Below are positions 45,325-60,785 of a stretch of DNA of 64,000 nucleotides, in pieces. Location: the NCBI GenBank assembly GCA_038849525.1, contig JAWCMS010000001.1, positions 142,584-206,583 of the forward strand, in the 5' to 3' direction. The DNA is from Candidatus Pacearchaeota archaeon. GTDB lineage: Archaea; Nanobdellota; Nanobdellia; Pacearchaeales; JAHJTO01. Position numbers and translations under genes: made by a program. Below the pieces are notes generated by a model. That model worked only from the letters and a program-made list of their open reading frames with translations. It was not told where the DNA came from and searched no databases. Positions within the stretch are counted from its first letter, which is position 1. Each line of letters starts with the position of its first letter.

Positions 45325-45341
45325 AAGTCGAGACTCTTAAA

Positions 45342-46541: not shown

Positions 46542-47447
46542 TTATTTTTTCTCTACTGTTTTAGTAATTTTTGTTACTTCTTTTACAACCTTACCATCTT
46601 CTTTTTTATGATGTGCCTGCTTATGTAGATTTTTTAGTTTTGGATGTTTATGGATAGCTATTGTTTTTATTTCTCTTTTGGCGGGCATTTGTTTAGGTTT
46701 TGCTTTTTTATGTATTATTGTTATTTCTTTTTTTATAGGGGGCGATGGTTTTTGAATAGATGGTTTTTTTAACTTTGCAACTTTCAGTTCTTCTGTTATC
46801 CTACTCAATTCTTTCATGTTTTCTACAAATGGAGAAAGAATCTTGCCAAATGCTCCTTCAAGCCCCACCATTTCTGCACTTAGATTTTTTATATCTCTCT
46901 GGTATTCTTGAACTTTTGATAGCAATGCAGCTTGTAATCTATCCATTGAAGACTCTATCCTTTTTATTCTTTCATCAATGCTTGAAATTCTTTTTTCAGC
47001 ATAAATTTTCCATTCTATAACATCTGAGATTTTTCCTTTTATTTCAGACCATTTTTCATTTACTATTTCTTCTGCTATCTCTTCTATTGCTTCTGTTTCT
47101 ATTTTTGGAGCAATTTCTGGTGCAACAGGATATTGATAAGGATAGGCGGGATATTCTGTTGAAGGTGTAGTAGGAGTTATTACGGGAGCTGGAACAATAG
47201 ATGGTTTAGGAATCGGTGTTTCATAAGCTGAAGGTGTTGGAATTTGTGAAGTTTCTTTTGTTAGTATAGATGGCTGCAAACCTTCTACTCCTATAATTTC
47301 TTTTTTTATTTTAGCCTGATTTAAAGCATCTGTAATTTGGACTGGCGAATATCCAGCGTCTGTAAGCCTTTTTATTATATCCATATCAGAAAGGCCTTGT
47401 TGTAACATATTCAAAACTTCAGATACTGGTGTTTCTCTATCAACCAT
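46542..47447 (-). CDS. coiled-coil protein with Pro-rich linker and Lys-rich tail. Possible pilus/archaellum accessory.
   Basis: 301 aa. Lies upstream of the pilus ATPase operon. Confidence 0.35.
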   Translation of the reverse strand: MVDRETPVSEVLNMLQQGLSDMDIIKRLTDAGYSPVQITDALNQAKIKKEIIGVEGLQPSILTKETSQIPTPSAYETPIPKPSIVPAPVITPTTPSTEYPAYPYQYPVAPEIAPKIETEAIEEIAEEIVNEKWSEIKGKISDVIEWKIYAEKRISSIDERIKRIESSMDRLQAALLSKVQEYQRDIKNLSAEMVGLEGAFGKILSPFVENMKELSRITEELKVAKLKKPSIQKPSPPIKKEITIIHKKAKPKQMPAKREIKTIAIHKHPKLKNLHKQAHHKKEDGKVVKEVTKITKTVEKK

Positions 47448-47517
47448 CTTTTTATATTATTTTTAAGAAATCTGATATTTAAAATGTTTGTGATTTCTTT
47501 TATTAGCAAAATATTTA

Positions 47518-47877
47518 TTATTTTTTCAACTTTTCATTAATCATTCTTTTAACATCATCTTCTTTTACAAATTTAAGAGGCTCGAACATTTTTATATATT
47601 TTTCAAGAATTAGCAATTCTTCTCTGCGTACGAAATCAGCGCTGTCTCTAATTAAAGACTGGAGATTTTCTTTAATACGGTCTAAATCTAAACGCATCTC
47701 TTTAACTTCATCTTTTAAAAGTGCAAATTCTTTTGACATTCTTTCTTCTGCTCTAAGAAATGATTGTGAAATAAGAAGAACCCTTTCTTTTAACATTTCA
47801 TGCCTTTCTTCAATATCTTTTATTTTTGTATTCCATTCAGCTAACAGTGCAGAAATTTCACCTATTTCTTCTACCAT
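47518..47877 (-). CDS. small coiled-coil protein
   Basis: 119 aa, heptad-rich. Confidence 0.35.
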   Translation of the reverse strand: MVEEIGEISALLAEWNTKIKDIEERHEMLKERVLLISQSFLRAEERMSKEFALLKDEVKEMRLDLDRIKENLQSLIRDSADFVRREELLILEKYIKMFEPLKFVKEDDVKRMINEKLKK

Positions 47878-47946
47878 CTTTTTTCTATATTCTCATAGAA
47901 AGGTATTTTAATAAACTTTTCTTTCTATAAACATAAAAGAGGAAAA

Positions 47947-50241
47947 ATGATTTTCAGACCAGAAACAAAGTTATATTCTTATGAAGTAGTCAGAGAAGCA
48001 GGGCAGGATGTAATGTATATAAATTATATTGGACATCCAAGTGTACCTTCTATCGCTGATTCTGCAATTGTGATGGCAAGGACAATTGATAATCTAATAG
48101 AATCTCCAAGGGTTAGTAAAATTGTTTTTGTACAACAGAGAAATTATGTTTATGATCTTAATCAAACTTCATTACTCATAGAAATCGCACAGCTTTATAC
48201 TTTTCTCATCGAACAAGAAAAAATTCTTTCTCCAAAGAAATTAATTCCTTTTGGAGAGCAGCAATTTTTGCAGCAAAGGTATAATGCTATGAGGTGGCTG
48301 ATTTTAACTTTGTTAAAGCAAGATCCAATAGGTTGTTATATTGAAGCTAAGAGGTTATTAAGAGAAGAAAAAATAAATGCAGAAAGAATTGCTGCAGAGT
48401 ATGTTCATTCTGAAAATGCTTACATAAGATTACTAAGTAAAATTGTTGAAATGCTTGAAGGAACTAGGTTAATTAGAGAGGCTAGAGATATTGATATTGA
48501 AGCACATAAAATAGGAGACAGAGAAATTTATAGAAAATTTTTTAGACCAGATGTTGTTCCAAATTTCACTTTTACGAGATTAATGGCGAGTTTACCAATC
48601 GGAGCAGATATTTTAGATGAATATAAAGTAGAATCTGGATATGATAAGAGTTTAGTAACTATCTTAAAAATACCTGGAACTGGAAGACCTATTTACCATT
48701 TACAAAGTCCTGAATTTATGTTAGAAGAAAATTTTTACAGCTTAATCGATTTAGCAAGAAGTGTTTTAATTGAGCACAGGCCAAAAGCAGAAGAATTTAT
48801 CGATCCACAAAGAACAAGACAGGTTTTTTTTAATATATCTCGAGATTTATTAAGAGAATTAGCTGAAAGTAGAAAAATTTCTTTGTCTTACAGGCAACTT
48901 AACAAACTTGCAACAATTCTTGTTAGACATACAATCGGATTTGGCTTAATTGAAGTGCTTTTACAAGATGAAAGGTTACAAGATATTGTTGTAAATGCAC
49001 CTGTTTCACAAACGCCAATATTTGTAAGGCATCAGGATTTTGATGAATGTGTTACTAACATTATTCCTGCATATGAAGATGCAGAAGCGTGGGCTGCTCG
49101 TTTTAGATTAATTTCAGGAAGGCCTTTAGACGAAGCAAATCCTGTTCTTGATACTGATTTGGAGATAGAAAATGTAAGGGCAAGAGTAGCAATTATACAA
49201 CAACCATTGTCTCCGTATGGACTTGCTTATGCTTTAAGAAGACATAGAGAAAAGCCATGGACCTTACCTTTGTTCATAAAAAATAGGATGATAAACCCTA
49301 TAACTGCAGGATTATTAAGTTTTTTAATTGATGGTTCAAGAACAATTCTTTTTGCAGGGACAAGAAGTGCAGGAAAAACATCTTTGCTTGCCGCAGCAAT
49401 GCTTGAAATAATACCTAAATATAGAATAATAGTTATAGAAGATACATTAGAGATGCCCGTAAATGCATTTAAAAAACTGGGCTATGACATATTGAGAATG
49501 AAAGTTCGTTCTGCGTTGCTTAGAGAGAGCACTGAAATGGAAGCTGCTGACGGAATAAGAACGAGTTTGAGATTAGGAGATTCTTCTTTAATAGTTGGAG
49601 AAGTAAGAAGTGATGAAGCGAAAGCATTATATGAGGCAATGAGGATTGGAGCGTTAGCTAATGTTGTTGCAGGAACGATACATGGCGGCTCGCCATATGC
49701 TGTTTTTGATAGGGTTGTTAATGATTTAGGAGTGCCAATAACTTCATTTAAAGCAACCGATATCGTATTAGTTGCAAATCCGATAAAGAGTCCAGATGGG
49801 ATACATAGCTGGAGAAGAGTTACACAATTTGCAGAAATAAGGAAGCATTGGCAGAGAGATCCTTTGGAAGAAAAAGGTTTTGTTGACTTGTTAACTTATG
49901 ATGTAAAAAAAGATTCTTTAGAGCCAAGTACAGATTTAATAAACGGCGAGTCAGAAGTGATCAAAACAGTTGCAGGACAAGTAAAAGGATGGGCTGGAGA
50001 TTGGGATGCTGTATGGGATAATATTTTGCTGAGAGCAAATATAAAACAAGAATTAGTTGAAAAAGCAAAAATTACAGGTATAAAAGATCTACTTGAAGCT
50101 CCTTTTGTATTGAAGAGCAATAATATGTTTCATGAATTTTCAGATAAAATTACTAAGGAGATAGGCATTCCTGAAGGTAAAAGAGTATTTAGCGAATGGA
50201 AAGACTGGTTAAATGAAGAAATAAGAAAAAGAACTTTATAA
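47947..50241 (+). CDS. Type II/IV secretion-family ATPase (FlaI/PilB/VirB11-like) with long N-terminal extension
   Basis: Walker A GTRSAGKTS, Asp box RIIVIEDTLE, Walker B LIVGEVRSDEA, His box GTIHGGSP. 764 aa. Confidence 0.75.
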   Translation: MIFRPETKLYSYEVVREAGQDVMYINYIGHPSVPSIADSAIVMARTIDNLIESPRVSKIVFVQQRNYVYDLNQTSLLIEIAQLYTFLIEQEKILSPKKLIPFGEQQFLQQRYNAMRWLILTLLKQDPIGCYIEAKRLLREEKINAERIAAEYVHSENAYIRLLSKIVEMLEGTRLIREARDIDIEAHKIGDREIYRKFFRPDVVPNFTFTRLMASLPIGADILDEYKVESGYDKSLVTILKIPGTGRPIYHLQSPEFMLEENFYSLIDLARSVLIEHRPKAEEFIDPQRTRQVFFNISRDLLRELAESRKISLSYRQLNKLATILVRHTIGFGLIEVLLQDERLQDIVVNAPVSQTPIFVRHQDFDECVTNIIPAYEDAEAWAARFRLISGRPLDEANPVLDTDLEIENVRARVAIIQQPLSPYGLAYALRRHREKPWTLPLFIKNRMINPITAGLLSFLIDGSRTILFAGTRSAGKTSLLAAAMLEIIPKYRIIVIEDTLEMPVNAFKKLGYDILRMKVRSALLRESTEMEAADGIRTSLRLGDSSLIVGEVRSDEAKALYEAMRIGALANVVAGTIHGGSPYAVFDRVVNDLGVPITSFKATDIVLVANPIKSPDGIHSWRRVTQFAEIRKHWQRDPLEEKGFVDLLTYDVKKDSLEPSTDLINGESEVIKTVAGQVKGWAGDWDAVWDNILLRANIKQELVEKAKITGIKDLLEAPFVLKSNNMFHEFSDKITKEIGIPEGKRVFSEWKDWLNEEIRKRTL

Positions 50242-50252
50242 TCTAAATAAAA

Positions 50253-52376
50253 ATGGTAAATAAAAAGGTTGAAGAAATACTAAGGAGATATAGCTCACAG
50301 ATCGAAAGAGCAGTAAGGACTGAAAAGTTTGAGTCTGAATATTCAAAAGAATATCTTAAATTTAAAGAAGAACTTTCTCCAGAACTCTCAAACTATGAAA
50401 AGTTTGCAAAAAATGCTGGCAAAATAATAAAATTAAAAATAAATGAAAAAGATAAAGCAAAAATAAATGAACATTTGGAAAGAGCACATTTGGATGTTAA
50501 AGCAGAAGATGCTGTAGCATTTTCTCTTCTTTCTTTTATTATTTCACTTTTGATTTTTTCACTTTTAATTGCAACACTCTTTCTTTTAGATATTGAAGTT
50601 CCAATATTAATTATTATTCTTGCTTTTTTAATCTCTATTTTTATTTATTTTTATGTTTCTTCACTACCAGAAAAAATAAGCCAACAATGGAAATTAAAAG
50701 CAAGTTCTCAGATGGTTCCTGCAATTTTGTATATTGTTGTTTACATGAAACACACAAGCAATTTAGAGAGAGCAATTAAATTTGCAAGTCAGCATTTACA
50801 ACCTCCACTATCTCTTGATTTCAAAAAGATACTATGGGATGTTGAAACTGGAAAATATACAACAATAAAAGAGTCTTTAGATTCTTATCTTGAAGGCTGG
50901 AGAACATACAGCCCAGAATTTATAGAATCATTTCATCTTATTGAAAGTTCATTGTATGAGCCGAGCGAGGCAAGAAGGATTGCTGTTTTGGAAAAAGCAT
51001 TATCTGTCATTCTCGATGGGGTTTATGACAAAATGTTAAAATATACTCATGATGTTCAAGCACCTTTAACTAATCTTTATATGCTTGGTATTGTACTTCC
51101 AACATTAGCGATAGCCTTGTTACCTCTAGCTTCTACTTTACTTGCAGGTACAATAAAGTGGTGGTATGTTGCGATATTCTTTAATTTGATTATACCTTTT
51201 TTTGTTTATTATCTTACTTCTGGTGTTCTTGTAAAACGACCCGGAGGATATGGAGATACAGAAATGCTTGAGCTTAATCCAGAATATCCTTATTACAAAA
51301 GTAGCATTCATTATTACAAAGCTCTTATTGTTGCAATTCCTTTTTTTATAATTGGTATAATACCTTTGATGGTTTATTTTGGATTTTTCCCAGATTATAG
51401 TTTTAAAGAAATAGGAATGCAGTTTCCTTCTTTAGAAGAAATGAAAATATTTGGTTTTATAGATGGCAAAGGTCCTTTTGGTTTAGGTGCATTGATACTT
51501 AGCTTTTTTATTCCTCTTAGCATTGCATCTTTTTTATGGATTTCTTACTCATCAAAAACAAAAAAAATTTTAAAGATGAAAGAAGAGACCTTAAAGCTTG
51601 AAAGTGAATTTTCAAGTTCTTTATTTCAGCTTGGAAACAGACTGGGGGACAATATTCCAGCTGAAATGGCTTTTGGAAGAGTCGCTGAAAGTTCTAAGGG
51701 AACAGCAACAGAAGGTTTCTTTAGAACAGTCAACAGCAATATTCAGCAATTTGGAATGTCAGTAAAAGAAGCTATTTTTAATTCTAGTAGAGGAGCAATA
51801 ATCTACTATCCATCTGAACTTATCAGAACAAGCATGGAAATTCTTGTTGAATCTGTCAAACAAGGATTACAGGTTGCTGCAAATGCGATGATAAGCATTT
51901 CACAATATGTAAAAAATATCGGAAAAATAAATGAAAGGCTAAAGGATTTACTTGCAGATATAATAAGTAGTATGAAAAGCAATATGTCTTTCCTTGCACC
52001 TCTACTTGCAGGAATAGTTGTTGGCTTAGCAGCAATGATTACCACGATACTAACCAAATTGCAGCAAATGCTATCTCTTCCTGGAGGAGAAAATATCCCT
52101 CTTGCAGGTTCTACCTTAGGAAATTTAACAAAATCTTTTAATCTTGAAGCGATGATCCCTCCTTACTGGCTACAAATAGTAGTAGGAATATACTTAATAG
52201 AAATAATTTATATTTTAAGTATAACTCTTGTTTCAGTAGAGTCAGGAGTAGACAAATTAAAAGAAAAATCAGAAATTGCGAGAAATATGAAAGCCGGAAT
52301 CTTGCTTTATATACTTACTGCTCTTGCAGCATCATTGATATTATCAATGCTTGCAAGTATAGCTATAACTGTATAA
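50253..52376 (+). CDS. FlaJ/TadC/PilC-like polytopic membrane platform protein
   Basis: 707 aa. Two blocks of TM helices separated by cytoplasmic domains. Immediately follows the ATPase. Confidence 0.65.
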   Translation: MVNKKVEEILRRYSSQIERAVRTEKFESEYSKEYLKFKEELSPELSNYEKFAKNAGKIIKLKINEKDKAKINEHLERAHLDVKAEDAVAFSLLSFIISLLIFSLLIATLFLLDIEVPILIIILAFLISIFIYFYVSSLPEKISQQWKLKASSQMVPAILYIVVYMKHTSNLERAIKFASQHLQPPLSLDFKKILWDVETGKYTTIKESLDSYLEGWRTYSPEFIESFHLIESSLYEPSEARRIAVLEKALSVILDGVYDKMLKYTHDVQAPLTNLYMLGIVLPTLAIALLPLASTLLAGTIKWWYVAIFFNLIIPFFVYYLTSGVLVKRPGGYGDTEMLELNPEYPYYKSSIHYYKALIVAIPFFIIGIIPLMVYFGFFPDYSFKEIGMQFPSLEEMKIFGFIDGKGPFGLGALILSFFIPLSIASFLWISYSSKTKKILKMKEETLKLESEFSSSLFQLGNRLGDNIPAEMAFGRVAESSKGTATEGFFRTVNSNIQQFGMSVKEAIFNSSRGAIIYYPSELIRTSMEILVESVKQGLQVAANAMISISQYVKNIGKINERLKDLLADIISSMKSNMSFLAPLLAGIVVGLAAMITTILTKLQQMLSLPGGENIPLAGSTLGNLTKSFNLEAMIPPYWLQIVVGIYLIEIIYILSITLVSVESGVDKLKEKSEIARNMKAGILLYILTALAASLILSMLASIAITV

Positions 52377-52414: not shown

Positions 52415-53341
52415 GTGGATGATAAAAATATGAAAAATAAAAAAGGACTTACTATCACAACAATTGTAATAACTATTGTGATAATTATGTCTTTTATAAT
52501 TCTTTTAGCAGTTGTCAATCAAATAGTTGAACTAATTCCTTCTACTTTTAACAAAGAAGCATGTCGTGATTCTGTAATTGCAAGAGCAGCAATTAAGAAT
52601 CTTCCTGTTGGAGGAGAATTGGCTACAAAAAAAATTCCGTTAAAGTGTAAAACAGAATATATCTGCCTTACAATGGGGGGAGAATGTCCAACTGGTTATA
52701 ATAAAATATCTGTAAGAAATAAAGAAGACATAAACAAAGAGATTGCAAATGCGATACATGACTGTTGGTGGATGTTTGGAGAAGGAAAACTAAATTTTCT
52801 GTCTTCAGAATGGATAACAAAAGAAAAGTGTATTATTTGTTCTATAATTGCATTTGACGACAAAATTCAACAAGAGTATCCTGAAATAGCCGGATTAAAC
52901 AATTATTTATCTTATAACTTAGTTCCTAATAAAAATGTTACCTATTTACAGTATATTTCAAATAATATGGATGTACAACCTTCAATAAGTGAGAATGATA
53001 GATATTCTACTAAAGAGAAATATTCTATAATCTTCGGATATGTTGCCAAAGGAAATCTTGCAAAAAGAGTTGGTTGTATAGTTGGGGGAGGGGCAGGAGC
53101 TACAGTAGGATTTACCTTAGGAAGCGTAGTTCCTATAATTGGAAATATCGCTGGAACAGGGCTTGGTTTTACAATCGGTGCAGCAGGCTGTTACTTTGGT
53201 GCCAAAGGTGGAACAGAAGCAATAAATTTTATAAATAATTTTTTCGGAGATTACAGCAATACGGTATTGTTACAATTCTTACAATTTAACCAAAAAAACA
53301 TTGAACAGTTCGGATGTGATAAAATTGAATCAATTCCTTAA
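52415..53341 (+). CDS. large pilin-like protein with class III (prepilin) signal peptide and Cys/Gly-rich C-terminus
   Basis: N-terminus MKNKKG|LTITTIVITIVII (K-G cleavage motif plus hydrophobic helix). Confidence 0.5.
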   Translation: MDDKNMKNKKGLTITTIVITIVIIMSFIILLAVVNQIVELIPSTFNKEACRDSVIARAAIKNLPVGGELATKKIPLKCKTEYICLTMGGECPTGYNKISVRNKEDINKEIANAIHDCWWMFGEGKLNFLSSEWITKEKCIICSIIAFDDKIQQEYPEIAGLNNYLSYNLVPNKNVTYLQYISNNMDVQPSISENDRYSTKEKYSIIFGYVAKGNLAKRVGCIVGGGAGATVGFTLGSVVPIIGNIAGTGLGFTIGAAGCYFGAKGGTEAINFINNFFGDYSNTVLLQFLQFNQKNIEQFGCDKIESIP

Positions 53342-54299: not shown

Positions 54300-55274
54300 T
54301 TAGCATGTAGCAGTTGAAGGAATATGATTTGGCAGCCCTATTCTTGCCCAATCAAAATTACTCGGATCTATTTTTCTATCTCTCATGCCTTGAAGAGTTT
54401 CATAATGGCCAATGATATGTTTATCATCATATTTTATATCAGGCCATCTTTTTATTATATCTTTAATTAAATTATTTAATGATGAGTACTGTGCATCTGT
54501 ATATCCAAAATTTTTGCATCCTGTGCTAACAAGTTCTATACCTATTGAAAAATCATTGTATGGGTATCCAGCATGGATAGCTTTTTGAGTTTCATCAACA
54601 AGATAATATATTTTGCCATCTCTATCTATTATATAATGAACAGAATTTCCAGAATTTTTGAGAAAATTATAAGCCTCTATAAAATTTGTTCCAGCGGTAT
54701 GATGCAAGACGATAGTATTAATTTTTGTATCTTTATCTCTTGGTTTTGATTGAAGGGTATAAGATGTATTGACTTTTATTTCTGGTATAGTTGTTCTTTC
54801 ATATTCTTTTAGTGTTCCTTGTTCTGAAATAACACTTAAAATAGAATATTCTGTAGGGTTATTTTTAATATAAAGTTCCATTATCTTAATTTGCATGGAA
54901 ATGCTTTTACCATCTTTTTTTAATGGTTTTTCTATATTATTACAGTATTTTTCTTCTGATTTAACTGGACAGTCTTTATCTTTGCAGATACATATACAAT
55001 TTTGGCTAGCACATATTATGGGGCTACTTTCTATTTTATCATAAGAAACAAGCCAGTATCCTTGAGGAGCATAAACAATAAAAGAATCGATATTTTCATT
55101 TTTTATATCTCTTAAAAAATTTATTAGATTTGTTAAAGTCTCTTTTGCTTGTTGTTCCTCTTTACTTTTTAAAAAATTACCATAGATGTTAGTGCATGCG
55201 CCTATTACTGCTATTATAAGAAAAACTGTAAGAAGCAGATACATTACTTCTTTTAATAAAGACATTTCGGGCAT
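54300..55274 (-). CDS. Secreted N-acetylmuramoyl-L-alanine amidase (Amidase_2/PGRP-type) with Cys-rich linker
   Basis: C-terminal domain IVLHHTAGTNF...SVHYIIDRDGKIYYLVD...AIHAG...NDFSIGIELV...HYE...RKIDPSNFDW matches the H-H/T-A-G...H-A-G...IGIE pattern of T7-lysozyme/AmiD-type amidases. N-terminal signal/TM plus C-x-C-x-C-x-C region. Confidence 0.7.
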   Translation of the reverse strand: MPEMSLLKEVMYLLLTVFLIIAVIGACTNIYGNFLKSKEEQQAKETLTNLINFLRDIKNENIDSFIVYAPQGYWLVSYDKIESSPIICASQNCICICKDKDCPVKSEEKYCNNIEKPLKKDGKSISMQIKIMELYIKNNPTEYSILSVISEQGTLKEYERTTIPEIKVNTSYTLQSKPRDKDTKINTIVLHHTAGTNFIEAYNFLKNSGNSVHYIIDRDGKIYYLVDETQKAIHAGYPYNDFSIGIELVSTGCKNFGYTDAQYSSLNNLIKDIIKRWPDIKYDDKHIIGHYETLQGMRDRKIDPSNFDWARIGLPNHIPSTATC

Positions 55275-55372: not shown

Positions 55373-55648
55373 TTAGCAACTAGTAATCTCTTTACAATAT
55401 TTTACACCAATATTTCTTATTGTAACAGTTGCATTATCAAATAACTCTTGTTTGCCTACAGCCCTTGCACTCGTGCATATATCATCACATCTTGCTTTTG
55501 CTTGAGACAATTCTATTTCTGTCGTACCCATAATTTTATCCCAAAGATTTTTCATTCCTCCAGAAAAGGCTGCGGCTACTACAACTAAAACAATCAAAGC
55601 CAAGATTATTATTATAATAGTCTCGATTGAAATAGCCCCTCTTTTCAT
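55373..55648 (-). CDS. archaeal type IV pilin (class III signal peptide, DUF361-like)
   Basis: MKRG|AISIETIIIIILALIVLVVVAAAF is the classic archaeal prepilin motif. Confidence 0.65.
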   Translation of the reverse strand: MKRGAISIETIIIIILALIVLVVVAAAFSGGMKNLWDKIMGTTEIELSQAKARCDDICTSARAVGKQELFDNATVTIRNIGVKYCKEITSC

Positions 55649-55715: not shown

Positions 55716-57893
55716 ATGTTAGAGAGTATATTATTAAAAACAAAGAAAGCAATTCTTCCTTTAGCCATTTCTTCTACTATTCTTTCATTTTCAAATGCAT
55801 CTACACCATACATCTCAATTGTTAATCTAGATAATAAAAATTATAGAGTCTTATTTGATGAAAATAACAAACCCCATGTTAATGCTGAAAATCTAGAGAT
55901 TGCAAAAAAAGCTGCTTTTAAAGCCCTAATCAATCAAAAGTCAGAGGAGCTTGAGACGCATGTAAAATCTCTGACTTATGAGTCTCTTCAAACAATCTTT
56001 GGACCTATTGAAAGAGGCAAGGAAATTGACAATAAAATCAATACTATTGATAAATATCTTGGTTTAGACGAAGATATTCCTTTCTGGATTTTCTCTGTTC
56101 TTGAATATAGGGAAAAATTCGATAAAAAGCTTCTTGCTGATGTTTTTGAAGCATGGAAATATAGGAATAATGCATTAAAATTTTTGAAAAGCATTGAAGA
56201 AAGAGAAGATTTAGCTAATACCTACAAAAATCTTTGCATAATAGATGAAAATATTCTTGATATGACTGAAAATATAAAAGAAAAAAATGAACTTACAAGT
56301 ATTAAATTTATTCTTGATAAGAAACACATAGATTTTTTTCTTGATAAACTTTTAAGAACATGGAATTTAGAAGAAGCTAAAGAAAAAATTGAAGAAATAA
56401 AAAAAGAACTTGAAAATCCTGCTGTTAGAGAATTAAAAGAAGATTTAGAGAAAACATTAGAAGAAAGTCGAGATTATAGGAAGAATAAAGAAAAATCAAA
56501 AGAAAAAGAGATAGGAAAAATTATAAGAGATCAAGATATTATCTCGGAAACTCCTGAAAAAATTTTCCAAAAAAATTTTATTGTTCCTTTATTTACTCAA
56601 TCAAATCCTTCTTTTCAAACTTTTGAAAATCAAGAAAAAGCATCTTTAGATATTTCAATTGAAAAATATAATTTAAAGGAAGGTTGTATCTTAGAATTAA
56701 TAGTTCTTTCAGATAAAGTATTCAATAAAGCAAAAACAAATATTTTTTGCATACATTTACCAGAAACAAGAATAGGAAAGATAGGCCAAAAAGCATACAC
56801 TTTTAGTACAAGATACAGGCAGTTTAGACAATGGGAGGAAATTCTACCATATGGCCAAGATAAGTATATTCTTCTTGAGATGGATGCAACAAAATGGGCA
56901 TTCAACAAAATGATTTCGATGACAATGAAAGGAAATATAATAAAAACAAAAAATCTTCTGAGATTTATAGGTGAAAATATTTACGGAGTTGAACTTGAAA
57001 GAGATGTGAATAAGCTAAATGATAATGTTATAAAAAAATTAAATGATGCATACTCTGTTCATGGTATAAAAATTAATCCTGTAGGGGCTTTTAGGCAGGC
57101 TCAAGGTTATCTTTTTCTTATTCCGATATATAATTTTCAAAAAGACGTTATTCTCTATATGAACTTAACGATGCAATCTGGTTTGATACCATCAGAAAAA
57201 GGCTTCGGTGTACCTTCGGGATATGAGGAAGCAGAAGGAAGACTTGAAGATTTAGTGATTTCAGTAAATAAAAAAACAGCTTTTCAAGGTTTTATAACAG
57301 CCGAAGAACAGCAACAAGAAAAATATGATAAAAGTCTTATTAATTTCCTAGAGAATAAAAAAAATGAATTTGAAAAAGAAAATCCTTTCGCCACTTATGA
57401 CTATGAAATTACAGCTTATGATAAAAACAAAGCTGAAGTTAAAGTTAACTTGACATTTACGAGAAAAATTGGGCTACAAGAATGGAAAAACGAAGCTCTT
57501 AGTTTGGGGACTAAAATCCTTAATTCAAACCCTGCTGATTTAGGAAGAATTCTTGAACAAAGCAATACTGATTTATTAAACTCTGAAAAAAAAGAATTTC
57601 ATTCTTTAAAACTTTGGCTAGAAAAACAAGGAGAAAGGTGGTATGAAAAATATTCTACAGAAAAAGATATCAAAAGAAGTTTAGAGATAATAAGAAGAAT
57701 GATTAATATTTATTACGAAAATCATAAAAAGTATCCTCAAGCCCTTAAAGATTTAAGAGAAGATTTTAATGAAAAAAGTCCAGAAGTATTAGAATTATGT
57801 GAGATCGGTTCAAGAACTTTTGTAAGAGAAAGTGAACTCATTTATGATAAAAACAATGGAAAAATTTATTATAAACCATTTCTTAAATGGTAG
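55716..57893 (+). CDS. large secreted hypothetical protein
   Basis: 725 aa. N-terminal signal-like segment ILPLAISSTILSFSNAS. Confidence 0.45.
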   Translation: MLESILLKTKKAILPLAISSTILSFSNASTPYISIVNLDNKNYRVLFDENNKPHVNAENLEIAKKAAFKALINQKSEELETHVKSLTYESLQTIFGPIERGKEIDNKINTIDKYLGLDEDIPFWIFSVLEYREKFDKKLLADVFEAWKYRNNALKFLKSIEEREDLANTYKNLCIIDENILDMTENIKEKNELTSIKFILDKKHIDFFLDKLLRTWNLEEAKEKIEEIKKELENPAVRELKEDLEKTLEESRDYRKNKEKSKEKEIGKIIRDQDIISETPEKIFQKNFIVPLFTQSNPSFQTFENQEKASLDISIEKYNLKEGCILELIVLSDKVFNKAKTNIFCIHLPETRIGKIGQKAYTFSTRYRQFRQWEEILPYGQDKYILLEMDATKWAFNKMISMTMKGNIIKTKNLLRFIGENIYGVELERDVNKLNDNVIKKLNDAYSVHGIKINPVGAFRQAQGYLFLIPIYNFQKDVILYMNLTMQSGLIPSEKGFGVPSGYEEAEGRLEDLVISVNKKTAFQGFITAEEQQQEKYDKSLINFLENKKNEFEKENPFATYDYEITAYDKNKAEVKVNLTFTRKIGLQEWKNEALSLGTKILNSNPADLGRILEQSNTDLLNSEKKEFHSLKLWLEKQGERWYEKYSTEKDIKRSLEIIRRMINIYYENHKKYPQALKDLREDFNEKSPEVLELCEIGSRTFVRESELIYDKNNGKIYYKPFLKW

Positions 57894-57899
57894 TAGATT

Positions 57900-58520
57900 T
57901 TAACAAGCCTCTATTTTAGAGAAAAAGGCTTGCTGCTCTTCTTTGCTTTTACCAAAAATAAATAAATTTTCAAATCCTTTTTCTTTATATACAATAAATG
58001 ATAAAGTAGAAGAATTTTTATAAATGTTTGGTGAGATTATTTCATCGCCATTAAATTCTGCTATTTTTTCAAATGTTATCAAATTTTCTATTTCTTCTTT
58101 TATTTCTATTATATTTTCATCTTTGTTTAAAACTCCTGTAATAGACACATTATTCATGGTATAACTTCTAAAAGTTTTATCATTATATTTGAAATTAATA
58201 TTTGCATAACGATTAATTAAAGTACCCCTATTTATTATCTGCATGCTTACTTCTTTAGGAAGATTTACGAAAGCATCTTTACACAAGCAATTGTTTTTTT
58301 GCTTTAATTTGCATTCTTCAAGTTTTGAAATAAAATTATCTACTGCGCTATTGATAGAATATTTGGTAGTTACAGGCAGTGATTGAAAATCTATTTTTGT
58401 TTCTGGTGCTAAGTAAGTATTATAAAAAGAGTAAATCAACAAAAATATTATTGCTACTGCGATTATAACAAGTATAAGATTTATTAATTTTTCAAAAGTT
58501 AGCTCCATTTTATCTTCCAA
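57900..58520 (-). CDS. hypothetical protein with N-terminal TM helix
   Basis: 206 aa with LINLILVIIAVAIIFLLIYSF. Confidence 0.4.
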   Translation of the reverse strand: MEDKMELTFEKLINLILVIIAVAIIFLLIYSFYNTYLAPETKIDFQSLPVTTKYSINSAVDNFISKLEECKLKQKNNCLCKDAFVNLPKEVSMQIINRGTLINRYANINFKYNDKTFRSYTMNNVSITGVLNKDENIIEIKEEIENLITFEKIAEFNGDEIISPNIYKNSSTLSFIVYKEKGFENLFIFGKSKEEQQAFFSKIEAC

Positions 58521-58668
58521 ATCTAAAAATATCTAATATATTCTGAAGGGCTGCAGCTAATCTCCCTGTTGCTAACGAATTTATAAACAAAATAAGTATC
58601 ACAAGCACAGCCAGTCCTATTATCCATTTTCCAATTTCAGCAAATTCGAATCCTTTTTTATTTTTCAT
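58510..58668 (-). CDS. small pilin-like protein (52 aa) with class III signal peptide. Not in the ORF track.
   Basis: Manual translation: MKNKKG|FEFAEIGKWIIGLAVLVILILFINSLATGRLAAALQNILDIFRFGR. Confidence 0.4.
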   Translation of the reverse strand: MKNKKGFEFAEIGKWIIGLAVLVILILFINSLATGRLAAALQNILDIFRFGR

Positions 58669-58830
58669 GTTAGTAACGAAGGAATTATCTTTTTTAAAAT
58701 TACATAATAGGCAAGCATAATAATTATTATATAAAGCAGTATTTTTAGTAACAGTTCTAAACTTAATGAACCTTTTTTCATAATTCTTAATGATAAATAT
58801 TGTTAATAAACTTTATTAATTAGATATTGT

Positions 58831-59169
58831 TTGAAAAATAAGAAAATGAACAGAGGTGGGACTGAAGATTTGTTGTGGAATCTAGGACTTATTCTTATCT
58901 TTCTTTTTGTTGCAGGAATATTATTTGTATGGGAATCAAATCAAGTAACAGGAAAGGCTGTTAAATCAGAAATTATTGCAAAACAGACAGCATTGCTTAT
59001 TGATAGTGGTAAACCAGGAACAATAATATTTGTTGATGCAAATATTACTATAGAAGGAAATAAAATAATTGCATATTATGAAAATAGCAAATTTGAATAT
59101 TCATTTTTTAATAAGAATAAAATTTCATATAAGCAAACAGGAAGAGGAACTGAAATTAAGATAGAATGA
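58831..59169 (+). CDS. pilin-like / secreted small protein
   Basis: N-terminus MKNKKMNRGG|TEDLLWNLGLILIFLFVAGILFV. Atypical class III motif. Confidence 0.4.
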   Translation: MKNKKMNRGGTEDLLWNLGLILIFLFVAGILFVWESNQVTGKAVKSEIIAKQTALLIDSGKPGTIIFVDANITIEGNKIIAYYENSKFEYSFFNKNKISYKQTGRGTEIKIE

Positions 59170-59630
59170 ATCGCAAAGGACAGGTTTTGAGTGAAGGAAT
59201 AATACTAGTATGGAAAATTTTTCTTATCATATTTGTAATATTATTTGTTGTAATTACAATAACACCTGTTTTTACAACGAAATTAGATATAAGGCAGCCA
59301 GAAGGTCTGCTTATTGCAAAGAGTATTCTTGAATGTGTTTCCAATAATGGAATTGTAGAACAAGGTATTGATTTTAAAAATTGCATAATTTTAGATGAAA
59401 ATGAATACTATATTAATACTTCTTTAACCTCATTTGATTCAAATTTGAAAAAAGAAAGTATTTTCGGAATAGATTTAGAGGTCCTATGCTCTTTTCCTGG
59501 AAAATATTTATCATCACCTTCATGTATAAGACAAAAATATTATGTTTTAATTAACAACAATGGGAAAATAGAAAAAGGAACTCTTAATTTACTTATTGGA
59601 ATAAAAAAATTTGCTGAAAATGTCAAATAA
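59166..59630 (+). CDS. pilin-like protein (class III signal peptide)
   Basis: MNRKG|QVLSEGIILVWKIFLIIFVILFVV. 4-bp overlaps suggest an operon. Confidence 0.55.
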   Translation: MNRKGQVLSEGIILVWKIFLIIFVILFVVITITPVFTTKLDIRQPEGLLIAKSILECVSNNGIVEQGIDFKNCIILDENEYYINTSLTSFDSNLKKESIFGIDLEVLCSFPGKYLSSPSCIRQKYYVLINNNGKIEKGTLNLLIGIKKFAENVK

Positions 59631-60078
59631 AAAGGGTCAATTATTAGGAGAAACAGCAGCATTAATTGTAGCAACTATCATAATATTCATTTTGCTAGTT
59701 GTTTTCTTTTTTCTTATAAAAAGTATTTCAATAGCAAAAGGAACTGATTCAGAAACTATTCTATTACAAGAACAAAATATAGTTTCATTAATGGCTTATT
59801 TAAACACTCCTGTTAATATTCAAGAACAAGAGATGAAAATGATTGATTTAATTAGACTTACATCTATTGATAAGAATTATAAACTTTTATTGGAAGAAAA
59901 AACAAAAGAAATTTTTAATAAGGTTTATGGAAATGATTATCAATTTTGGATTATTCAAGATAGTAAGACTATAATTCAAATAAGTCCATTAGAAACTACG
60001 AAATATGGGTGGGTTCAGACTAAAATGGAATTGCCTGGAAAAATAATTGTCTATCTCCAACTAAAAAAACTAAAATGA
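59611..60078 (+). CDS. pilin-like protein (class III signal peptide)
   Basis: MSNKKG|QLLGETAALIVATIIIFILLVVFFF. Confidence 0.55.
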   Translation: MLKMSNKKGQLLGETAALIVATIIIFILLVVFFFLIKSISIAKGTDSETILLQEQNIVSLMAYLNTPVNIQEQEMKMIDLIRLTSIDKNYKLLLEEKTKEIFNKVYGNDYQFWIIQDSKTIIQISPLETTKYGWVQTKMELPGKIIVYLQLKKLK

Positions 60079-60785
60079 ACAGCAAATCACAGATTCCAGA
60101 AGCTGTATTAATTTTGATAGCTCTTGTTGTTTGTGGGACTACTTTATATTATATAGTAACATATGGAACAATAAAAGCAGAAACAATAAATATAAATAAA
60201 TCTATTGATATATTTAATGAAGCAGAAAAATTTGATTATTATATTCGCGATTTCTCTGACATGGCTTTACAAGAAAGCTATGCTGAAGTTACTAAAAAAC
60301 CCTTGGTTTGTCAGGAGCAAATAGGAACAGTAGCTATCTGGAGTGAGAAATGCAAACCTAATAATCAAGAAATTAAAAATAAAATAAAGTTAAAATTTGA
60401 TGAAAAATTATCAAAAATTGGAAAACTTTTTAGTTCTGAGATAAAAGAAAAAATAAATGTAAAATTTGAACCAATTATTTTTAATAATTCTAATAAAAAT
60501 AAGTTTGTTTCTTATAATATAAGTTATACATTATTTCCATCATTTTCTCTTGATTATCCAAAAATTGATTTCGAAGAGATATATTCTGCAATTATAACAA
60601 AAAAAGTAGAATGTGAAAATAAAGACAATCAGCAGGAATGCATGCAGCAATTAAATTTTGAAAATTGGAATTTTAGGCTGGAGTCAAGCACAAATTATTA
60701 TCTCTTTACTCTTTATTCAAAAAAATCATATTTTTATGATAATTCATTCAAACCTGTTGAATTTTCATTTGCCATAAAAAAATAA
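60075..60785 (+). CDS. pilin-like protein (probable class III signal peptide)
   Basis: MNSKS|QIPEAVLILIALVVCGTTLYYIV. Confidence 0.45.
   Translation: MNSKSQIPEAVLILIALVVCGTTLYYIVTYGTIKAETININKSIDIFNEAEKFDYYIRDFSDMALQESYAEVTKKPLVCQEQIGTVAIWSEKCKPNNQEIKNKIKLKFDEKLSKIGKLFSSEIKEKINVKFEPIIFNNSNKNKFVSYNISYTLFPSFSLDYPKIDFEEIYSAIITKKVECENKDNQQECMQQLNFENWNFRLESSTNYYLFTLYSKKSYFYDNSFKPVEFSFAIKK

What the first reader, a model, noticed from the sequence alone, without database searches (positions are those of the whole stretch)
46542..60785. Type IV pilus-like locus with at least six pilin-like genes and an oversized secretion ATPase
The locus holds an ATPase (764 aa, with about 400 extra N-terminal residues compared with FlaI/PilB-type enzymes) and a FlaJ/TadC-like platform. 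It also has one major-pilin-like gene (55373..55648, KRG|AISIE), four consecutive overlapping pilin-like genes (58831-60785), a 52-aa unannotated pilin-like ORF (58510..58668) and a 308-aa pilin-like protein. Coiled-coil proteins lie upstream. In a small-genome archaeon such pili may mediate host attachment or DNA uptake (compare the DprA cluster at 8.5-12.6 kb). The N-terminal extension of the ATPase and the pilin diversity are unexplained.
Basis: partly seen in the sequence, partly recalled or inferred. Interest (0 to 1): 0.6.

Follow-up and report, generated by a model that had tools for sequence, protein, structure and literature searches.

The report
Archaeal pilus locus carrying wall-degrading pilin
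A tiny-genome archaeon (Pacearchaeota) has a real type IV pilus-like gene cluster, and one of its pilin-like proteins is fused to an enzyme that cuts bacterial cell walls, which suggests these pili attack or grip bacteria.

Summary
The locus is real and is a type IV filament (T4P-like) system of a Candidatus Pacearchaeota (DPANN) archaeon. It has a GspE/FlaI-superfamily ATPase with intact motifs. Its 707-aa polytopic platform is missed by Pfam T2SSF but has a GspF-like cytoplasmic bundle. Eight to nine genes have pilin-like N-termini. Six of the window's eight class III-like signals lie within 8.4 kb (p = 4e-5).

Two corrections. The ATPase N-terminal extension is about 200 aa, not 400; it is conserved across the family and usually carries 2x CxxC, lost here. 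Variable N-domains are already known for archaeal pilus ATPases.

The 324-aa Amidase_2 protein (54300-55274, minus strand) is a conserved pilin-like "carrier" module fused to a peptidoglycan amidase. In relatives the same locus position holds the carrier fused to glucosaminidase or SLT, or the carrier alone. Among 88 long carrier proteins, every recognised C-terminal domain acts on peptidoglycan. 137 of 150 carriers have class III-like leaders; the window's copy lacks one.

Best reading: a pilus that presents swappable cell-wall hydrolases to bacteria. No prepilin peptidase was found in the sequence available.

The parts
46542..47447 (-). 301-aa cytoplasmic protein: small N-terminal domain, Pro-rich linker, helical region, Lys-rich tail. 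Larger member of a conserved pair transcribed divergently from the ATPase. Candidate accessory or regulatory subunit.
   Evidence: ORF. No TM segment. Only weak Pfam hits. A protein of 217-288 aa sits in the same place, next to a 125-132-aa one and the ATPase, in L006-L010 (in L008 a 48-aa ORF intervenes); L005 shows a truncated ORF in that position, even where the platform and pilins have moved away (L008, L010).
47518..47877 (-). 119-aa helical (coiled-coil-like) cytoplasmic protein, the smaller member of the conserved pair next to the ATPase.
   Evidence: Weak hits to coiled-coil families: FlaC_arch E = 0.011, KxDL, Occludin_ELL. Orthologues of 120-132 aa lie next to the ATPase (directly, except for a 48-aa ORF in L008) in L005-L010.
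47947..50241 (+). Assembly ATPase of the GspE/PilB/FlaI/TadA superfamily, 764 aa. The N-terminal extension is about 200 aa (residues 1 to about 215). Then come the usual N-domain and the RecA-like core.
   Evidence: Pfam T2SSE E = 6e-13. PDB: afGspE 2oap E = 9e-26 (q218-612), CpaF, FlaI 4ii7 (q325-706). Walker A 471-478, Walker B 494-499, GEVR 551, TIHG 577. More than 100 clusters at 63-90% identity, all about 760 aa, in Pacearchaeota/Nanoarchaeota. AlphaFold model of residues 1-330 has pLDDT 83, with residues 1-200 mostly above 90.
50253..52376 (+). Polytopic membrane platform protein, 707 aa, about 9 TM, with two cytoplasmic helical bundles. It is a divergent PilC/GspF/TadC/FlaJ analogue.
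   Evidence: No Pfam hit. Family conserved at 55-77% identity with no Pfam hit on any member. AlphaFold pLDDT 77.7, pTM 0.73. Foldseek domain matches to EpsF (2vmb, 3c1q) and OutF (5nbg) cytoplasmic domains: probability 0.96-0.99, TM-score normalised to the target 0.63-0.73, rmsd about 3 A; also a PilC model, 3jc8_Ca. hhalign probability 99.6, E = 6e-24, to the 604-aa 'secretion system protein' next to the related ATPase on Haloterrigena pHTUR04.
52415..53341 (+). 308-aa pilin-like protein (MKNKKG|LTITT) with a Cys-containing globular part and a Gly-rich hydrophobic C-terminal region.
   Evidence: Class III-like N-terminus. Orthologues of 293-323 aa with KKG|/KRG| leaders in L001, L006, L007, L008 and L010; the L001 copy also shares the C-terminal IESIP.
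53338..54147 (-). 269-aa protein with a lipobox-like N-terminus (LTITGC). Function unknown; membership of the system is uncertain.
   Evidence: ORF. No Pfam or NCBIfam hit. A 215-aa minus-strand gene lies in a similar position in L005, but its homology was not tested.
54300..55274 (-). Modular protein. Residues 1 to about 150 are a conserved pilin-like carrier module (TM helix plus a four-Cys globular part). Residues about 180-310 are an Amidase_2 peptidoglycan amidase. This copy lacks the K/R-G cleavage motif (MPEMSLLKEV...).
   Evidence: Amidase_2 E = 6e-29. AmpDh2 4bj4 E = 7e-13, with the conserved catalytic-site motifs of AmpD/AmpDh2 (LHHT, HY, GIE, GH, K-x-DP) aligned. An in-frame stop lies 27 nt upstream of the ATG, so no hidden leader. 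Orthologues have MKRG|DITLE or MKKG|MMLLE leaders. The carrier alone, or fused to glucosaminidase or SLT, occupies the same locus position in relatives.
55373..55648 (-). Major pilin candidate, 91 aa, MKRG|AISIETIIIIILALIVLVVVA.
   Evidence: It has the most hydrophobic N-terminal helix among the pilin-like genes of the window. Orthologues KRG|AISYEQ, KKG|AISFEQ and KKG|QLSIET lie directly upstream of the carrier gene in L005-L007; the orthologue in L001 (KRG|AETTIG) occupies the same position. The gene is duplicated in L008 and L010.
55716..57893 (+). 725-aa secreted or surface protein with an N-terminal signal-like sequence. Conserved in the locus; possible adhesin or envelope component.
   Evidence: ORF. 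No Pfam hit. Proteins of 636-693 aa occupy equivalent positions in L001, L006 and L007; homology is inferred from size and position only.
57900..58520 (-). 206-aa protein with one N-terminal TM helix (MEDKMELTFEKLINLILVII...) and no canonical K/R-G. Translationally coupled to the 52-aa gene.
   Evidence: It overlaps the 52-aa gene by 11 nt. The L001 orthologue starts MGDKMEITID. A '50-aa plus 200-360-aa' pair follows the platform in L005, L009 and L010.
58510..58668 (-). 52-aa pilin-like protein, MKNKKG|FEFAE...FRFGR.
   Evidence: Class III-like with Glu at +5. Orthologues in L001 (KKG|IAFET...FRFGR), L006, L007 and L009; L005 and L010 have a 50-aa gene at the same position.
58831..60785 (+). 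Four consecutive, overlapping minor-pilin-like genes: 112 aa (RG|GTEDL), 154 aa (RKG|QVLSE), 155 aa (KKG|QLLGE) and 236 aa (SKS|QIPE; KKG|Q in orthologues). Candidate tip or priming complex.
   Evidence: The same four-gene block, with class III-like leaders, occurs in L005, L006, L007, L008 and L010, always followed by RPA and RadA; L001 has the same four-gene block (the locus ends inside the fourth gene).

Best explanation
This is the type IV filament (T4P-like) system of a Pacearchaeota archaeon.

Shown here:
- The ATPase has all catalytic motifs and lies next to a polytopic platform with a GspF-like cytoplasmic bundle.
- Eight to nine proteins have short basic leaders ending in Gly, followed by a hydrophobic helix, often with Glu at +5.
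- The whole set is conserved and syntenic across Pacearchaeota.
- One of these proteins is a conserved pilin-like carrier fused here to a peptidoglycan amidase with intact catalytic residues. In relatives it is fused to glucosaminidase, lytic transglycosylase or VanY/M15 peptidase domains.

Inferred mechanism:
1. A class III signal peptidase encoded elsewhere removes the leaders.
2. The hexameric ATPase, perhaps positioned or regulated through its family-specific N-terminal domain and the two conserved helical partner proteins, drives the platform to extract pilins from the membrane.
3. The four-gene minor-pilin block primes assembly and sits at the tip.
4. The 91-aa pilin forms the shaft.
5. 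The carrier module places a cell-wall hydrolase on the filament, or at its base, so that contact with a bacterium is followed by local cleavage of its peptidoglycan.

This would serve attachment to, and access to the contents of, bacterial hosts or prey.

In this genome the carrier has lost the K/R-G cleavage motif. Its amidase may stay membrane-anchored rather than riding on the filament.
For: ATPase:
- Pfam T2SSE, and PDB hits to afGspE, CpaF and FlaI.
- Catalytic motifs are present.

Platform:
- AlphaFold model plus Foldseek domain matches to EpsF and OutF, probability 0.96-0.99, TM 0.63-0.73.
- hhalign E = 6e-24 to the gene adjacent to the closest annotated ATPase, 36.6% identity, on a haloarchaeal plasmid.

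Pilins:
- Six of the window's eight class III-like N-termini cluster here, p = 4e-5.
- Orthologues keep the leaders.

Synteny:
- Seen in seven related loci.

Carrier and hydrolases:
- Amidase_2 E = 6e-29, with the catalytic-site motifs shared with AmpDh2/AmpD conserved.
- The same position holds carrier plus glucosaminidase (L007), carrier plus SLT (L008), or the carrier alone (L001, L010).
- The carrier profile finds 2091 cluster representatives, with the module always N-terminal.
- Of the 88 long ones: 13 SLT, 13 glucosaminidase, 11 Amidase_2, 8 VanY/M15, 1 3D and 1 lysozyme-like. No recognised domain is unrelated to peptidoglycan; the only other hit is one domain of unknown function, DUF5715.
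- 137 of 150 carriers have [KR][GAS] leaders, median 6 residues, and 57 have Glu at +5.
- The amidase is also fused to at least one other pilin-like N-module (KKG|IGLEW, KKG|MMFEF).

Literature:
- Modular pilins are an established principle in bacteria (PMC8179133).
- Peptidoglycan hydrolases are known to be enriched in Nanoarchaeota (PMC12352652).
Against: - No prepilin peptidase (Pfam A24) is present in the window or in seven related loci. Processing is therefore unproven.
- The window's own carrier lacks the K/R-G motif and has no hidden upstream leader, as do 13 of 150 family members.
- The platform fails Pfam T2SSF and shows no hhalign match to a canonical haloarchaeal T2SSF protein. Global Foldseek E-values are not significant.
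The pilin fold of the carrier and of the other small proteins is therefore inferred from N-termini only.
- No filament, expression or enzyme activity data exist for this organism.
Confidence: 0.6

Rival explanations
1. The carrier module is only a membrane anchor. The locus would encode an ordinary adhesion pilus. The peptidoglycan hydrolases would be cell-surface-tethered enzymes that scavenge amino sugars and amino acids from bacterial wall debris, and would not be incorporated into any filament.
For: The window's copy and 13 of 150 family members lack a K/R-G cleavage motif. Scavenging of peptidoglycan by Pacearchaeota has been proposed (PMC11537232). A signal-less M15 (VanX-like) dipeptidase lies next to the ATPase in L010, which fits use of wall fragments.
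Against: 137 of 150 carriers keep a pilin-type leader with Gly or Ala at -1 and frequent Glu at +5. The carrier gene lies directly after the major pilin gene inside the pilin operon in every locus examined. A plain anchor would not need a conserved 100-aa four-Cys module.
Confidence: 0.22
2. The filament is primarily a DNA-uptake (competence-type) pilus. It would capture extracellular DNA, possibly released by the hydrolases, for nucleotide salvage or recombination.
For: RPA and RadA follow the four minor-pilin genes directly in the window and in L005, L006, L007, L008 and L010, despite rearrangements elsewhere. DprA (PF02481, E = 4e-51) and a DUF2779/Cas4-like nuclease lie in the same window. 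Type IV filaments take up DNA in bacteria (PMC12153270).
Against: No ComEC-like channel was found among the membrane proteins of the window. DprA is 40 kb away. Synteny among relatives that share 64-90% ATPase identity may be inherited order rather than functional linkage. Nothing in the pilins suggests DNA binding. This rival is compatible with the best explanation and need not exclude it.
Confidence: 0.12
3. The locus is an archaellum (motility) cluster, as the JGI annotations of several homologues ('archaeal flagellar protein FlaI') and some DPANN surveys imply.
For: JGI names P0081 and P0088 FlaI. The NCBIfam FlaI model gives the best E-value, 5e-34. DPANN genome surveys list FlaI, FlaJ and FlaK as motility genes (PMC8407392, PMC11606122).
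Against: The FlaI equivalog score is 117.9 against a cut-off of 550. No archaellin, FlaH or FlaF/G family hit was obtained for any gene of the locus or for the related loci. The ATPase carries a 200-aa N-extension, whereas archaellum ATPases are described as the most minimal (bioRxiv 10.64898/2026.04.22.720090, section 6).
Confidence: 0.03

Closest known systems
Archaeal type IV pilus systems, in particular Makarova subclade 4F (MA1299-like ATPases, arCOG01818) (PMC4858521)
   Same: The ATPase and platform are adjacent. The ATPase has an extra N-terminal domain that is Cys-rich in most family members: 2x CxxC in 16 of 22. A small helical cytoplasmic partner and a large secreted protein lie in the locus. 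That paper also notes that the cysteines are not conserved in some lineages (supplementary figure S1).
   Different: Placement in 4F was not tested phylogenetically. The platform is not recognised by Pfam T2SSF. The paper covered only Nanoarchaeum and Nst1 and could not identify cognate pilins in nanoarchaea; here a full pilin set lies beside the machinery. The helical partners show no similarity to the proteins next to the Haloterrigena homologue.
Modular type IV pilins of bacteria, such as Streptococcus sanguinis PilB (pilin plus vWA) and PilC (pilin plus lectin) (PMC8179133)
   Same: An N-terminal pilin-like carrier with a class III leader is joined to a C-terminal functional module. Many alternative modules sit on the same carrier. 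Presentation on the filament is presumed.
   Different: This system is archaeal, and the carrier is a distinct four-Cys module with no Pfam signature. The cargo is enzymatic and, wherever recognisable, always peptidoglycan-degrading. That paper reports adhesive modules and one peptidase module and does not mention archaea. The window's own copy has no cleavable leader.
Methanococcus Epd pili and DUF361-type class III signals (QxSxExxxL, EppA substrates)
   Same: [quoted passage not shown] I recalled the DUF361 motif from established knowledge; it was not tested here.
   Different: No Pfam Class_IIIsignal hit was obtained. System 1 (Epd) has a two-gene platform according to bioRxiv 10.64898/2026.04.22.720090, whereas here there is one 707-aa platform. 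No EppA-like peptidase was found.
Archaeal and DPANN peptidoglycan hydrolases (PMC12352652; PMC8204110; PMC9723730)
   Same: Amidase, glucosaminidase and lytic transglycosylase domains occur in archaea that lack peptidoglycan. They are enriched in Nanoarchaeota, Pacearchaeota and Woesearchaeota and are interpreted as acting on bacteria.
   Different: Those reports describe Sec/Tat-secreted modular hydrolases with wall-binding domains, or very large (up to 3000 aa) SLT proteins. The words pilin and pili do not occur in PMC12352652 or PMC8204110. Here the hydrolases are 300-400-aa proteins with pilin-type leaders, encoded inside the pilus operon.
Pseudomonas AmpDh2 and AmpD (Amidase_2, N-acetylmuramoyl-L-alanine amidases)
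   Same: The catalytic domain aligns over about 150 residues, with the conserved catalytic-site motifs shared with these enzymes.
   Different: It is fused to an archaeal pilin-like module. The host has no peptidoglycan of its own as far as is known, so a role in recycling its own wall is unlikely.

Membership tests
Type IV filament (T4P/TFF) system | Hexameric secretion ATPase of the GspE/PilB/FlaI/TadA family with Walker A/B, Asp/His boxes and arginine fingers | tested here: met
   Pfam T2SSE E = 6e-13 (cut-off passed). PDB afGspE E = 9e-26, CpaF, FlaI. Motifs at 471, 494, 551 and 577.
Type IV filament (T4P/TFF) system | Platform protein carrying the T2SSF (PF00482) sequence signature | tested here: not met
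   No Pfam hit at E <= 0.1 in the window protein. No precomputed Pfam hit in 120 homologue clusters. hhalign against a canonical haloarchaeal T2SSF protein gives probability 0.3. A profile search against PDB sequences found nothing.
Type IV filament (T4P/TFF) system | Polytopic platform with GspF/PilC-like cytoplasmic helical bundles, encoded next to the ATPase | tested here: met
   About 9 TM. Model pLDDT 77.7. Foldseek matches to EpsF and OutF cytoplasmic domains with probability 0.96-0.99, TM 0.63-0.73, rmsd about 3 A, and to the PilC model 3jc8_Ca. The gene is adjacent to the ATPase here, and adjacent or within about 1.5 kb in L001, L005, L006, L007 and L009. Caveat: the global Foldseek E-values are above 0.1.
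Type IV filament (T4P/TFF) system | Subunits with class III signal peptides (short basic leader, Gly/Ala at -1, hydrophobic helix, often Glu at +5) | tested here: met
   Six canonical cases lie in the locus, four with Glu at +5, p = 4e-5 for the clustering. The leaders are conserved in orthologues. This is a motif-level test only; no FlaFind or SignalP run and no pilin fold prediction was done.
Type IV filament (T4P/TFF) system | Dedicated prepilin (class III signal) peptidase of family A24 | not testable with these tools
   Not found among the multi-TM proteins of the window, in the gene tables of seven related loci, or by a GxGD scan. The remaining roughly 340 kb of the contig and the rest of the genome could not be read. 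FlaK is annotated in Nanoarchaeota and Woesearchaeota genomes (PMC8407392; Woesearchaeota also in PMC11606122).
Archaellum | FlaI equivalog together with FlaH, FlaF/G and archaellins | tested here: not met
   NCBIfam FlaI score 117.9 against a cut-off of 550. No archaellin, FlaH or FlaF/G family hit in the locus or the related loci.
Makarova subclade 4F archaeal T4P | ATPase with an additional N-terminal Cys-rich domain; phylogenetic placement with MA1299-like ATPases | tested here: inconclusive
   The N-extension of about 200 aa is family-wide. 2x CxxC is present in 16 of 22 relatives but absent in the window. No reference 4F sequences were available for a tree. The closest annotated relative is a Haloterrigena plasmid ATPase, 36.6% identity.
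Modular type IV pilin (pilin carrier plus effector module) | N-terminal pilin module with a cleavable class III leader | tested here: inconclusive
   Family level: 137 of 150 have [KR][GAS] leaders. Window copy: no K/R-G and an in-frame stop upstream. The pilin fold of the carrier was not modelled.
Modular type IV pilin (pilin carrier plus effector module) | A distinct functional module fused C-terminally, varying between homologues | tested here: met
   Amidase_2, glucosaminidase, SLT, VanY/M15, 3D and lysozyme-like domains occur on the same carrier. Carrier-only versions also exist.
Amidase_2 (N-acetylmuramoyl-L-alanine amidase, PF01510) | Domain score above the Pfam gathering threshold and conserved Zn-binding and catalytic residues | tested here: met
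   101.5 bits against a cut-off of 26. The alignment to AmpDh2 and AmpD conserves LHHT, HY, GIE, GH and K-x-DP. I assigned these residues as Zn ligands and catalytic residues from established knowledge of AmpD. Enzyme activity was not testable.

The most novel reading that the evidence does not exclude
Pacearchaeota, and related DPANN archaea, assemble a 'lytic pilus'. This would be a type IV filament whose tip or shaft carries interchangeable peptidoglycan hydrolases (amidase, glucosaminidase, lytic transglycosylase, DD-peptidase) on a dedicated pilin carrier, and it would be used to breach the walls of bacterial hosts or prey. If so, it is the molecular apparatus of a cross-domain (archaeon-on-bacterium) parasitism or predation. 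It would also mean that much of this very abundant uncultured group depends on bacteria rather than on other archaea.
Probability: 0.35. Interest if true: 0.85.

Novelty: new variant of a known kind. Interest (0 to 1): 0.62.

Why it matters
All cultivated DPANN archaea live on other archaea. The hosts of Pacearchaeota and Woesearchaeota, which are among the most abundant uncultured archaea in groundwater and lakes, are unknown.

A conserved pilus operon whose pilin-like carrier is fused only to peptidoglycan-cleaving enzymes is a concrete, testable lead. It suggests that these archaea contact bacteria, and how they do so.

It also explains how some archaeal peptidoglycan hydrolases that lack Sec/Tat signals could reach the outside. 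PMC12352652 found recognised signals in only 32%.

It corrects two habits in the field. One is reading this ATPase as FlaI, and therefore as evidence of motility. The other is assuming that pili on ultra-small cells identify CPR bacteria because type IV pili are 'missing in DPANN genomes' (bioRxiv 10.1101/2020.05.14.094862).

It extends the modular-pilin principle to archaea and to enzymatic cargo.

Tried and rejected
- Foldseek of the ATPase N-terminal model (residues 1-330) gave no credible match: all probabilities were at or below 0.41 and rmsd values were above 8 A. The fold of the extension remains unassigned.
- A profile search of the platform against PDB sequences found nothing.
- hhalign of the platform against a canonical haloarchaeal T2SSF protein found nothing.
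- A test for an internal duplication in the platform by hhalign was negative, with very low alignment diversity.
- The two helical proteins upstream of the ATPase show no similarity to the DUF7311 and DUF7382 proteins next to the Haloterrigena homologue.
- A search for an A24 peptidase by Pfam on all multi-TM ORFs of the window and by GxGD motif in the window and all loci found none.
- I considered whether the three 5-TM paralogues (44830-46513) or the 229-aa M50-like protein could be divergent prepilin peptidases. Neither has the two-Asp/GxGD signature, so this was not pursued.
- The archaellum reading was rejected.
- I considered that the hydrolases act on the archaeon's own wall. I judged this unlikely because Pacearchaeota are not known to make peptidoglycan and PMC12352652 finds such hydrolases almost never in pseudomurein producers. 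It was not tested here.
- The listing of cluster members gave almost no taxonomic names for carrier proteins. The taxonomic range of the carrier family beyond Pacearchaeota/Nanoarchaeota is therefore unknown.

Full report
**Organism and context.** The window has about 29% G+C. Its ATPase is 100% identical to a protein annotated 'MAG: type II/IV secretion system ATPase subunit [Candidatus Pacearchaeota archaeon]' on a 400-kb contig. This is therefore a DPANN archaeon with a small genome. RPA-like and RadA genes lie directly downstream of the finding. DprA and a DUF2779/Cas4-like gene lie at 8.6-12.6 kb.

**Check of the observation.**
- I wrote a FlaFind-like rule: [KR][GA] within the first 18 residues, followed by a stretch of at least 14 residues with mean hydropathy of 2 or more.
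- It hits 8 of the 79 genes in a greedy gene set of the window. Six of these are among the 11 genes between 52415 and 60785 (hypergeometric p = 4.1e-5). Four have Glu at +5.
- The two hits outside the locus are multi-TM proteins, not pilin-like.
- The leaders are kept in the orthologues of each gene in seven related loci. This includes the 52-aa ORF, whose orthologues share the KKG leader; the L001 copy also shares the C-terminal FRFGR.
- The fourth gene of the block (236 aa) begins SKS|QIPE here but KKG|Q in its orthologues in L005-L007.
- The pilin-like gene set is thus real, conserved, and larger than six.

**The ATPase.**
- Pfam T2SSE matches residues 379-604.
- Against solved structures, the best hits are afGspE (2oap, E = 9e-26, query 218-612 opposite chain 26-399), CpaF, and FlaI (query 325-706 opposite 120-483).
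- Walker A (471-478), Walker B (494-499), GEVR (551) and the His box (577) are intact.
- The offset to afGspE and FlaI is 190-205 residues, so the extension is about 200 aa, not 400.
- More than 100 clusters at 63-90% identity share the about 760-aa architecture. Some are interrupted by an intein.
- An AlphaFold model of residues 1-330 is confident (pLDDT 83; residues 1-200 mostly above 90). It shows a small beta/alpha unit followed by a helical bundle. Foldseek against the PDB found nothing credible.
- 16 of 22 family members carry CxxC at about 104 and about 152. The window and five others have lost them.
- This matches the description of subclade 4F ATPases in Makarova et al. [quoted passage not shown]
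- It also matches a 2026 preprint showing that N-terminal domains of archaeal TFF ATPases are subsystem-specific.
- Haloarchaeal plasmid homologues are 648 and 833 aa. 'Oversized' is therefore normal for archaeal pilus ATPases.
- The NCBIfam FlaI equivalog score (118) is far below its cut-off (550). No archaellum genes are present.

**The platform.**
- The 707-aa protein has about 9 TM segments.
- It has no Pfam hit, and neither does any of 120 homologue clusters.
- A profile search against PDB sequences found nothing.
- Its AlphaFold model (pLDDT 77.7, pTM 0.73) has two cytoplasmic multi-helix bundles between TM helices.
- Foldseek finds the cytoplasmic domains of EpsF (2vmb, 3c1q) and OutF (5nbg) at probability 0.96-0.99, TM-score normalised to the target 0.63-0.73 and rmsd about 3 A. 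It also finds SpoIIIAB and the PilC model of 3jc8. Global E-values are not significant.
- tblastn of the ATPase core against plasmids gave as best hit a Haloterrigena turkmenica pHTUR04 ATPase (36.6% identity). Its neighbouring 604-aa 'secretion system protein' matches the Pacearchaeota platform profile at hhalign probability 99.6, E = 6e-24, over 485 columns. That protein is also missed by Pfam T2SSF.
- A canonical haloarchaeal T2SSF protein does not match.
- I conclude that this is a divergent lineage of platform proteins. It works like PilC/TadC/FlaJ, but membership of the T2SSF sequence family is not demonstrated.

**Conserved synteny.** Seven related loci were read. These elements recur:
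- Two helical proteins are transcribed divergently from the ATPase.
- The ATPase and platform are usually adjacent.
- A '50-aa plus 200-360-aa' pair follows the platform in L005, L009 and L010.
- A large (636-725 aa) secreted protein is present in the window, L001, L006 and L007.
- A short major-pilin candidate is present (G|AISxE or G|QLSIE; G|AETTIG in L001), duplicated in some genomes.
- The gene discussed in the next paragraph follows the major pilin.
- A pilin-like protein of about 300 aa is present.
- A four-gene minor-pilin block is followed by RPA and RadA.

In the window several of these genes are inverted relative to the collinear arrangement in L001 and L005.

**The key finding: a pilin-like carrier for cell-wall hydrolases.**
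- The 324-aa protein at 54300-55274 (minus strand) has an Amidase_2 domain (E = 6e-29). It aligns to AmpDh2 and AmpD, and the catalytic-site motifs LHHT, HY, GIE, GH and K-x-DP are conserved.
- Its first roughly 150 residues are a TM helix plus a module with four invariant cysteines.
- Full-length homologues lie on the same contigs as the ATPase and platform homologues. Most start with pilin-type leaders: MKRG|DITLE, MKKG|MMLLE, KKG|QEW, KRG|QGW.
- At the same locus position, L007 has the carrier (KRG|ILLKE) fused to a glucosaminidase (PF01832). L008 has the carrier (NKRG|LLLLK) fused to an SLT lytic transglycosylase. L001 and L010 have the carrier alone, at 167 and 157 aa.
- A profile of the carrier alone, searched against 1.84 billion cluster representatives, finds 2091 proteins at E <= 1e-3 and 993 at E <= 1e-10. 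In the top 150 the module is always N-terminal. Lengths fall into two groups: 62 proteins of 145-210 aa and 88 of 235-400 aa.
- Pfam on the 88 long ones finds SLT (13), glucosaminidase (13), Amidase_2 (11), VanY/Peptidase_M15 (8), 3D (1), lysozyme-like (1) and DUF5715 (1), with no recognised domain unrelated to peptidoglycan. About 41 have no recognised domain.
- 137 of the 150 have a class III-like N-terminus: -1 is Gly in 103, Ala in 31 and Ser in 3; the median leader is 6 residues; +5 is Glu in 57.
- The amidase also occurs on a second, different pilin-like N-module (KKG|IGLEW, KKG|MMFEF). That module has weak pairwise similarity to the 236-aa minor pilin (E = 0.002).
- Caveat for this window: its copy begins MPEMSLLKEV, with no K/R-G. 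An in-frame stop lies 27 nt upstream, so there is no hidden leader. The same leaderless variant occurs in P0242, P0306 and P0308.

**Mechanism.**
- Shown here: the machinery components, the conserved pilin-like set, the carrier-hydrolase fusions, and the intact catalytic residues.
- Inferred: leader removal by a class III peptidase encoded elsewhere; filament assembly by the ATPase and platform; the four-gene block acting as a priming or tip complex, by analogy with bacterial minor pilins; and presentation of the hydrolase on the filament, by analogy with bacterial modular pilins (PMC8179133).
- Because the archaeon has no known peptidoglycan, the substrate is most plausibly the wall of bacteria.
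- The leaderless window variant may act as a membrane-anchored enzyme at the contact site.

**Rivals.**
- A surface-anchored scavenging enzyme unrelated to the filament. This is supported by the leaderless variants. The 91% that keep pilin-type leaders and the operon position argue against it.
- A DNA-uptake pilus. This is supported by the persistent RPA/RadA adjacency and by DprA in the window. No ComEC-like channel was found. This rival is compatible with the main reading.
- An archaellum. Rejected.

**Prepilin peptidase.** No A24 peptidase was found in the window or in the seven loci (and the gene tables). FlaK is annotated in Nanoarchaeota and Woesearchaeota genomes. Makarova et al. noted its absence in two nanoarchaea.

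**Comparison with the literature.**
- Peptidoglycan hydrolases are known to be prominent in Nanoarchaeota, but only 32% of archaeal ones have recognised Sec/Tat signals. The word pilin does not occur in that paper (PMC12352652).
- Large SLT proteins of Pacearchaeota and Woesearchaeota have been taken as a hint of bacterial hosts (PMC8204110; PMC9723730).
- The 2026 census of archaeal TFF systems proposes SPIII-bearing substrate-binding proteins as a way to functionalise filaments. It does not mention peptidoglycan or hydrolases.
- One groundwater study assumed that type IV pili are missing in DPANN genomes.
- In the searchable library I found no description of pilin-type carriers for peptidoglycan hydrolases in archaeal pilus operons. 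This is absence in one library, not proof of novelty.

**Verdict.** The finding is confirmed as a T4P-like locus, with a corrected size for the ATPase extension. The machinery itself is a new member or divergent lineage of a known kind. The carrier-hydrolase family makes the locus a new variant of a known kind, and this is its most interesting aspect.

Noticed in passing
window 44830-45324, 45342-45911, 46037-46513 (+): Three tandem paralogous 5-TM proteins (164, 189 and 158 aa) with no Pfam hit. They share an N-terminal motif (LPF..F.FT.IFAIL.KT.). The same triplet lies upstream of the helical pair and the ATPase in L006, L007 and L009, but not in L001, L008 or L010. Their function is unknown, and they may or may not belong to the system.
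   Followed up: partly
window 43677-44366 (-); L008 12315-13037; L010 13008-13700: A 229-aa 6-TM protein with a weak, partial Peptidase_M50 match (E = 2e-4; NLIPISKLDGG motif, but HHIGQ instead of HExxH). Homologues (tblastn E = 1e-25 and 6e-18) lie next to the ATPase in L008 and L010, even after rearrangement. It is a conserved membrane partner of unknown role. It lacks the two-Asp/GxGD signature of A24 peptidases.
   Followed up: partly
window 60840-61796 and 61858-62853 (+): RPA-like (OB-fold) and RadA genes directly follow the four minor-pilin genes here and in L005, L006, L007, L008 and L010, despite other rearrangements. This is either inherited gene order or a hint of a link between the filament and DNA processing.
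   Followed up: partly
No ComEC-like channel was seen among the membrane proteins scanned.
   Followed up: partly
P0017, P0018, P0034, P0051, P0055, P0070 (ATPase homologues, 1275-1295 aa): Several Pacearchaeota orthologues of the pilus ATPase are interrupted by an intein (Pfam PF14528 LAGLIDADG_3 and PF14890 Intein_splicing). This points to a highly conserved and probably important enzyme.
   Followed up: no
L010 12287-12931 (-); L007 12280-13295 (+): In one relative, a signal-less Peptidase_M15 (VanX-like D-Ala-D-Ala dipeptidase) lies next to the ATPase, which could fit use of peptidoglycan fragments. In another, NUDIX and AAA_18 genes are inserted between the ATPase and the platform.
   Followed up: no
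L003 (Haloterrigena turkmenica pHTUR04) 5113-12057: The closest annotated relative of the ATPase-platform pair lies on a haloarchaeal plasmid. It sits between DUF7382 and DUF7311 proteins, an AAA ATPase and a DEAD/DEAH helicase. Its platform is also invisible to Pfam T2SSF. This haloarchaeal system looks uncharacterised.
   Followed up: partly
P0081, P0088 and others: JGI names orthologues of this ATPase 'archaeal flagellar protein FlaI'. Published DPANN surveys use FlaI/FlaJ/FlaK calls as evidence of motility. For this family that inference is probably wrong, because the FlaI equivalog score is far below its cut-off and no archaellins are present.
   Followed up: partly
window 32957-34807 (+): A 616-aa protein with a signal-like N-terminus, a C-terminal TM segment and a CARDB domain. 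It is another surface protein, next to a 303-aa secreted protein.
   Followed up: no
window 263-375 (+) and 21432-21514 (+): A 5S rRNA gene and a single tRNA-Ser(CGA) are the only RNA genes detected in the 64 kb.
   Followed up: no
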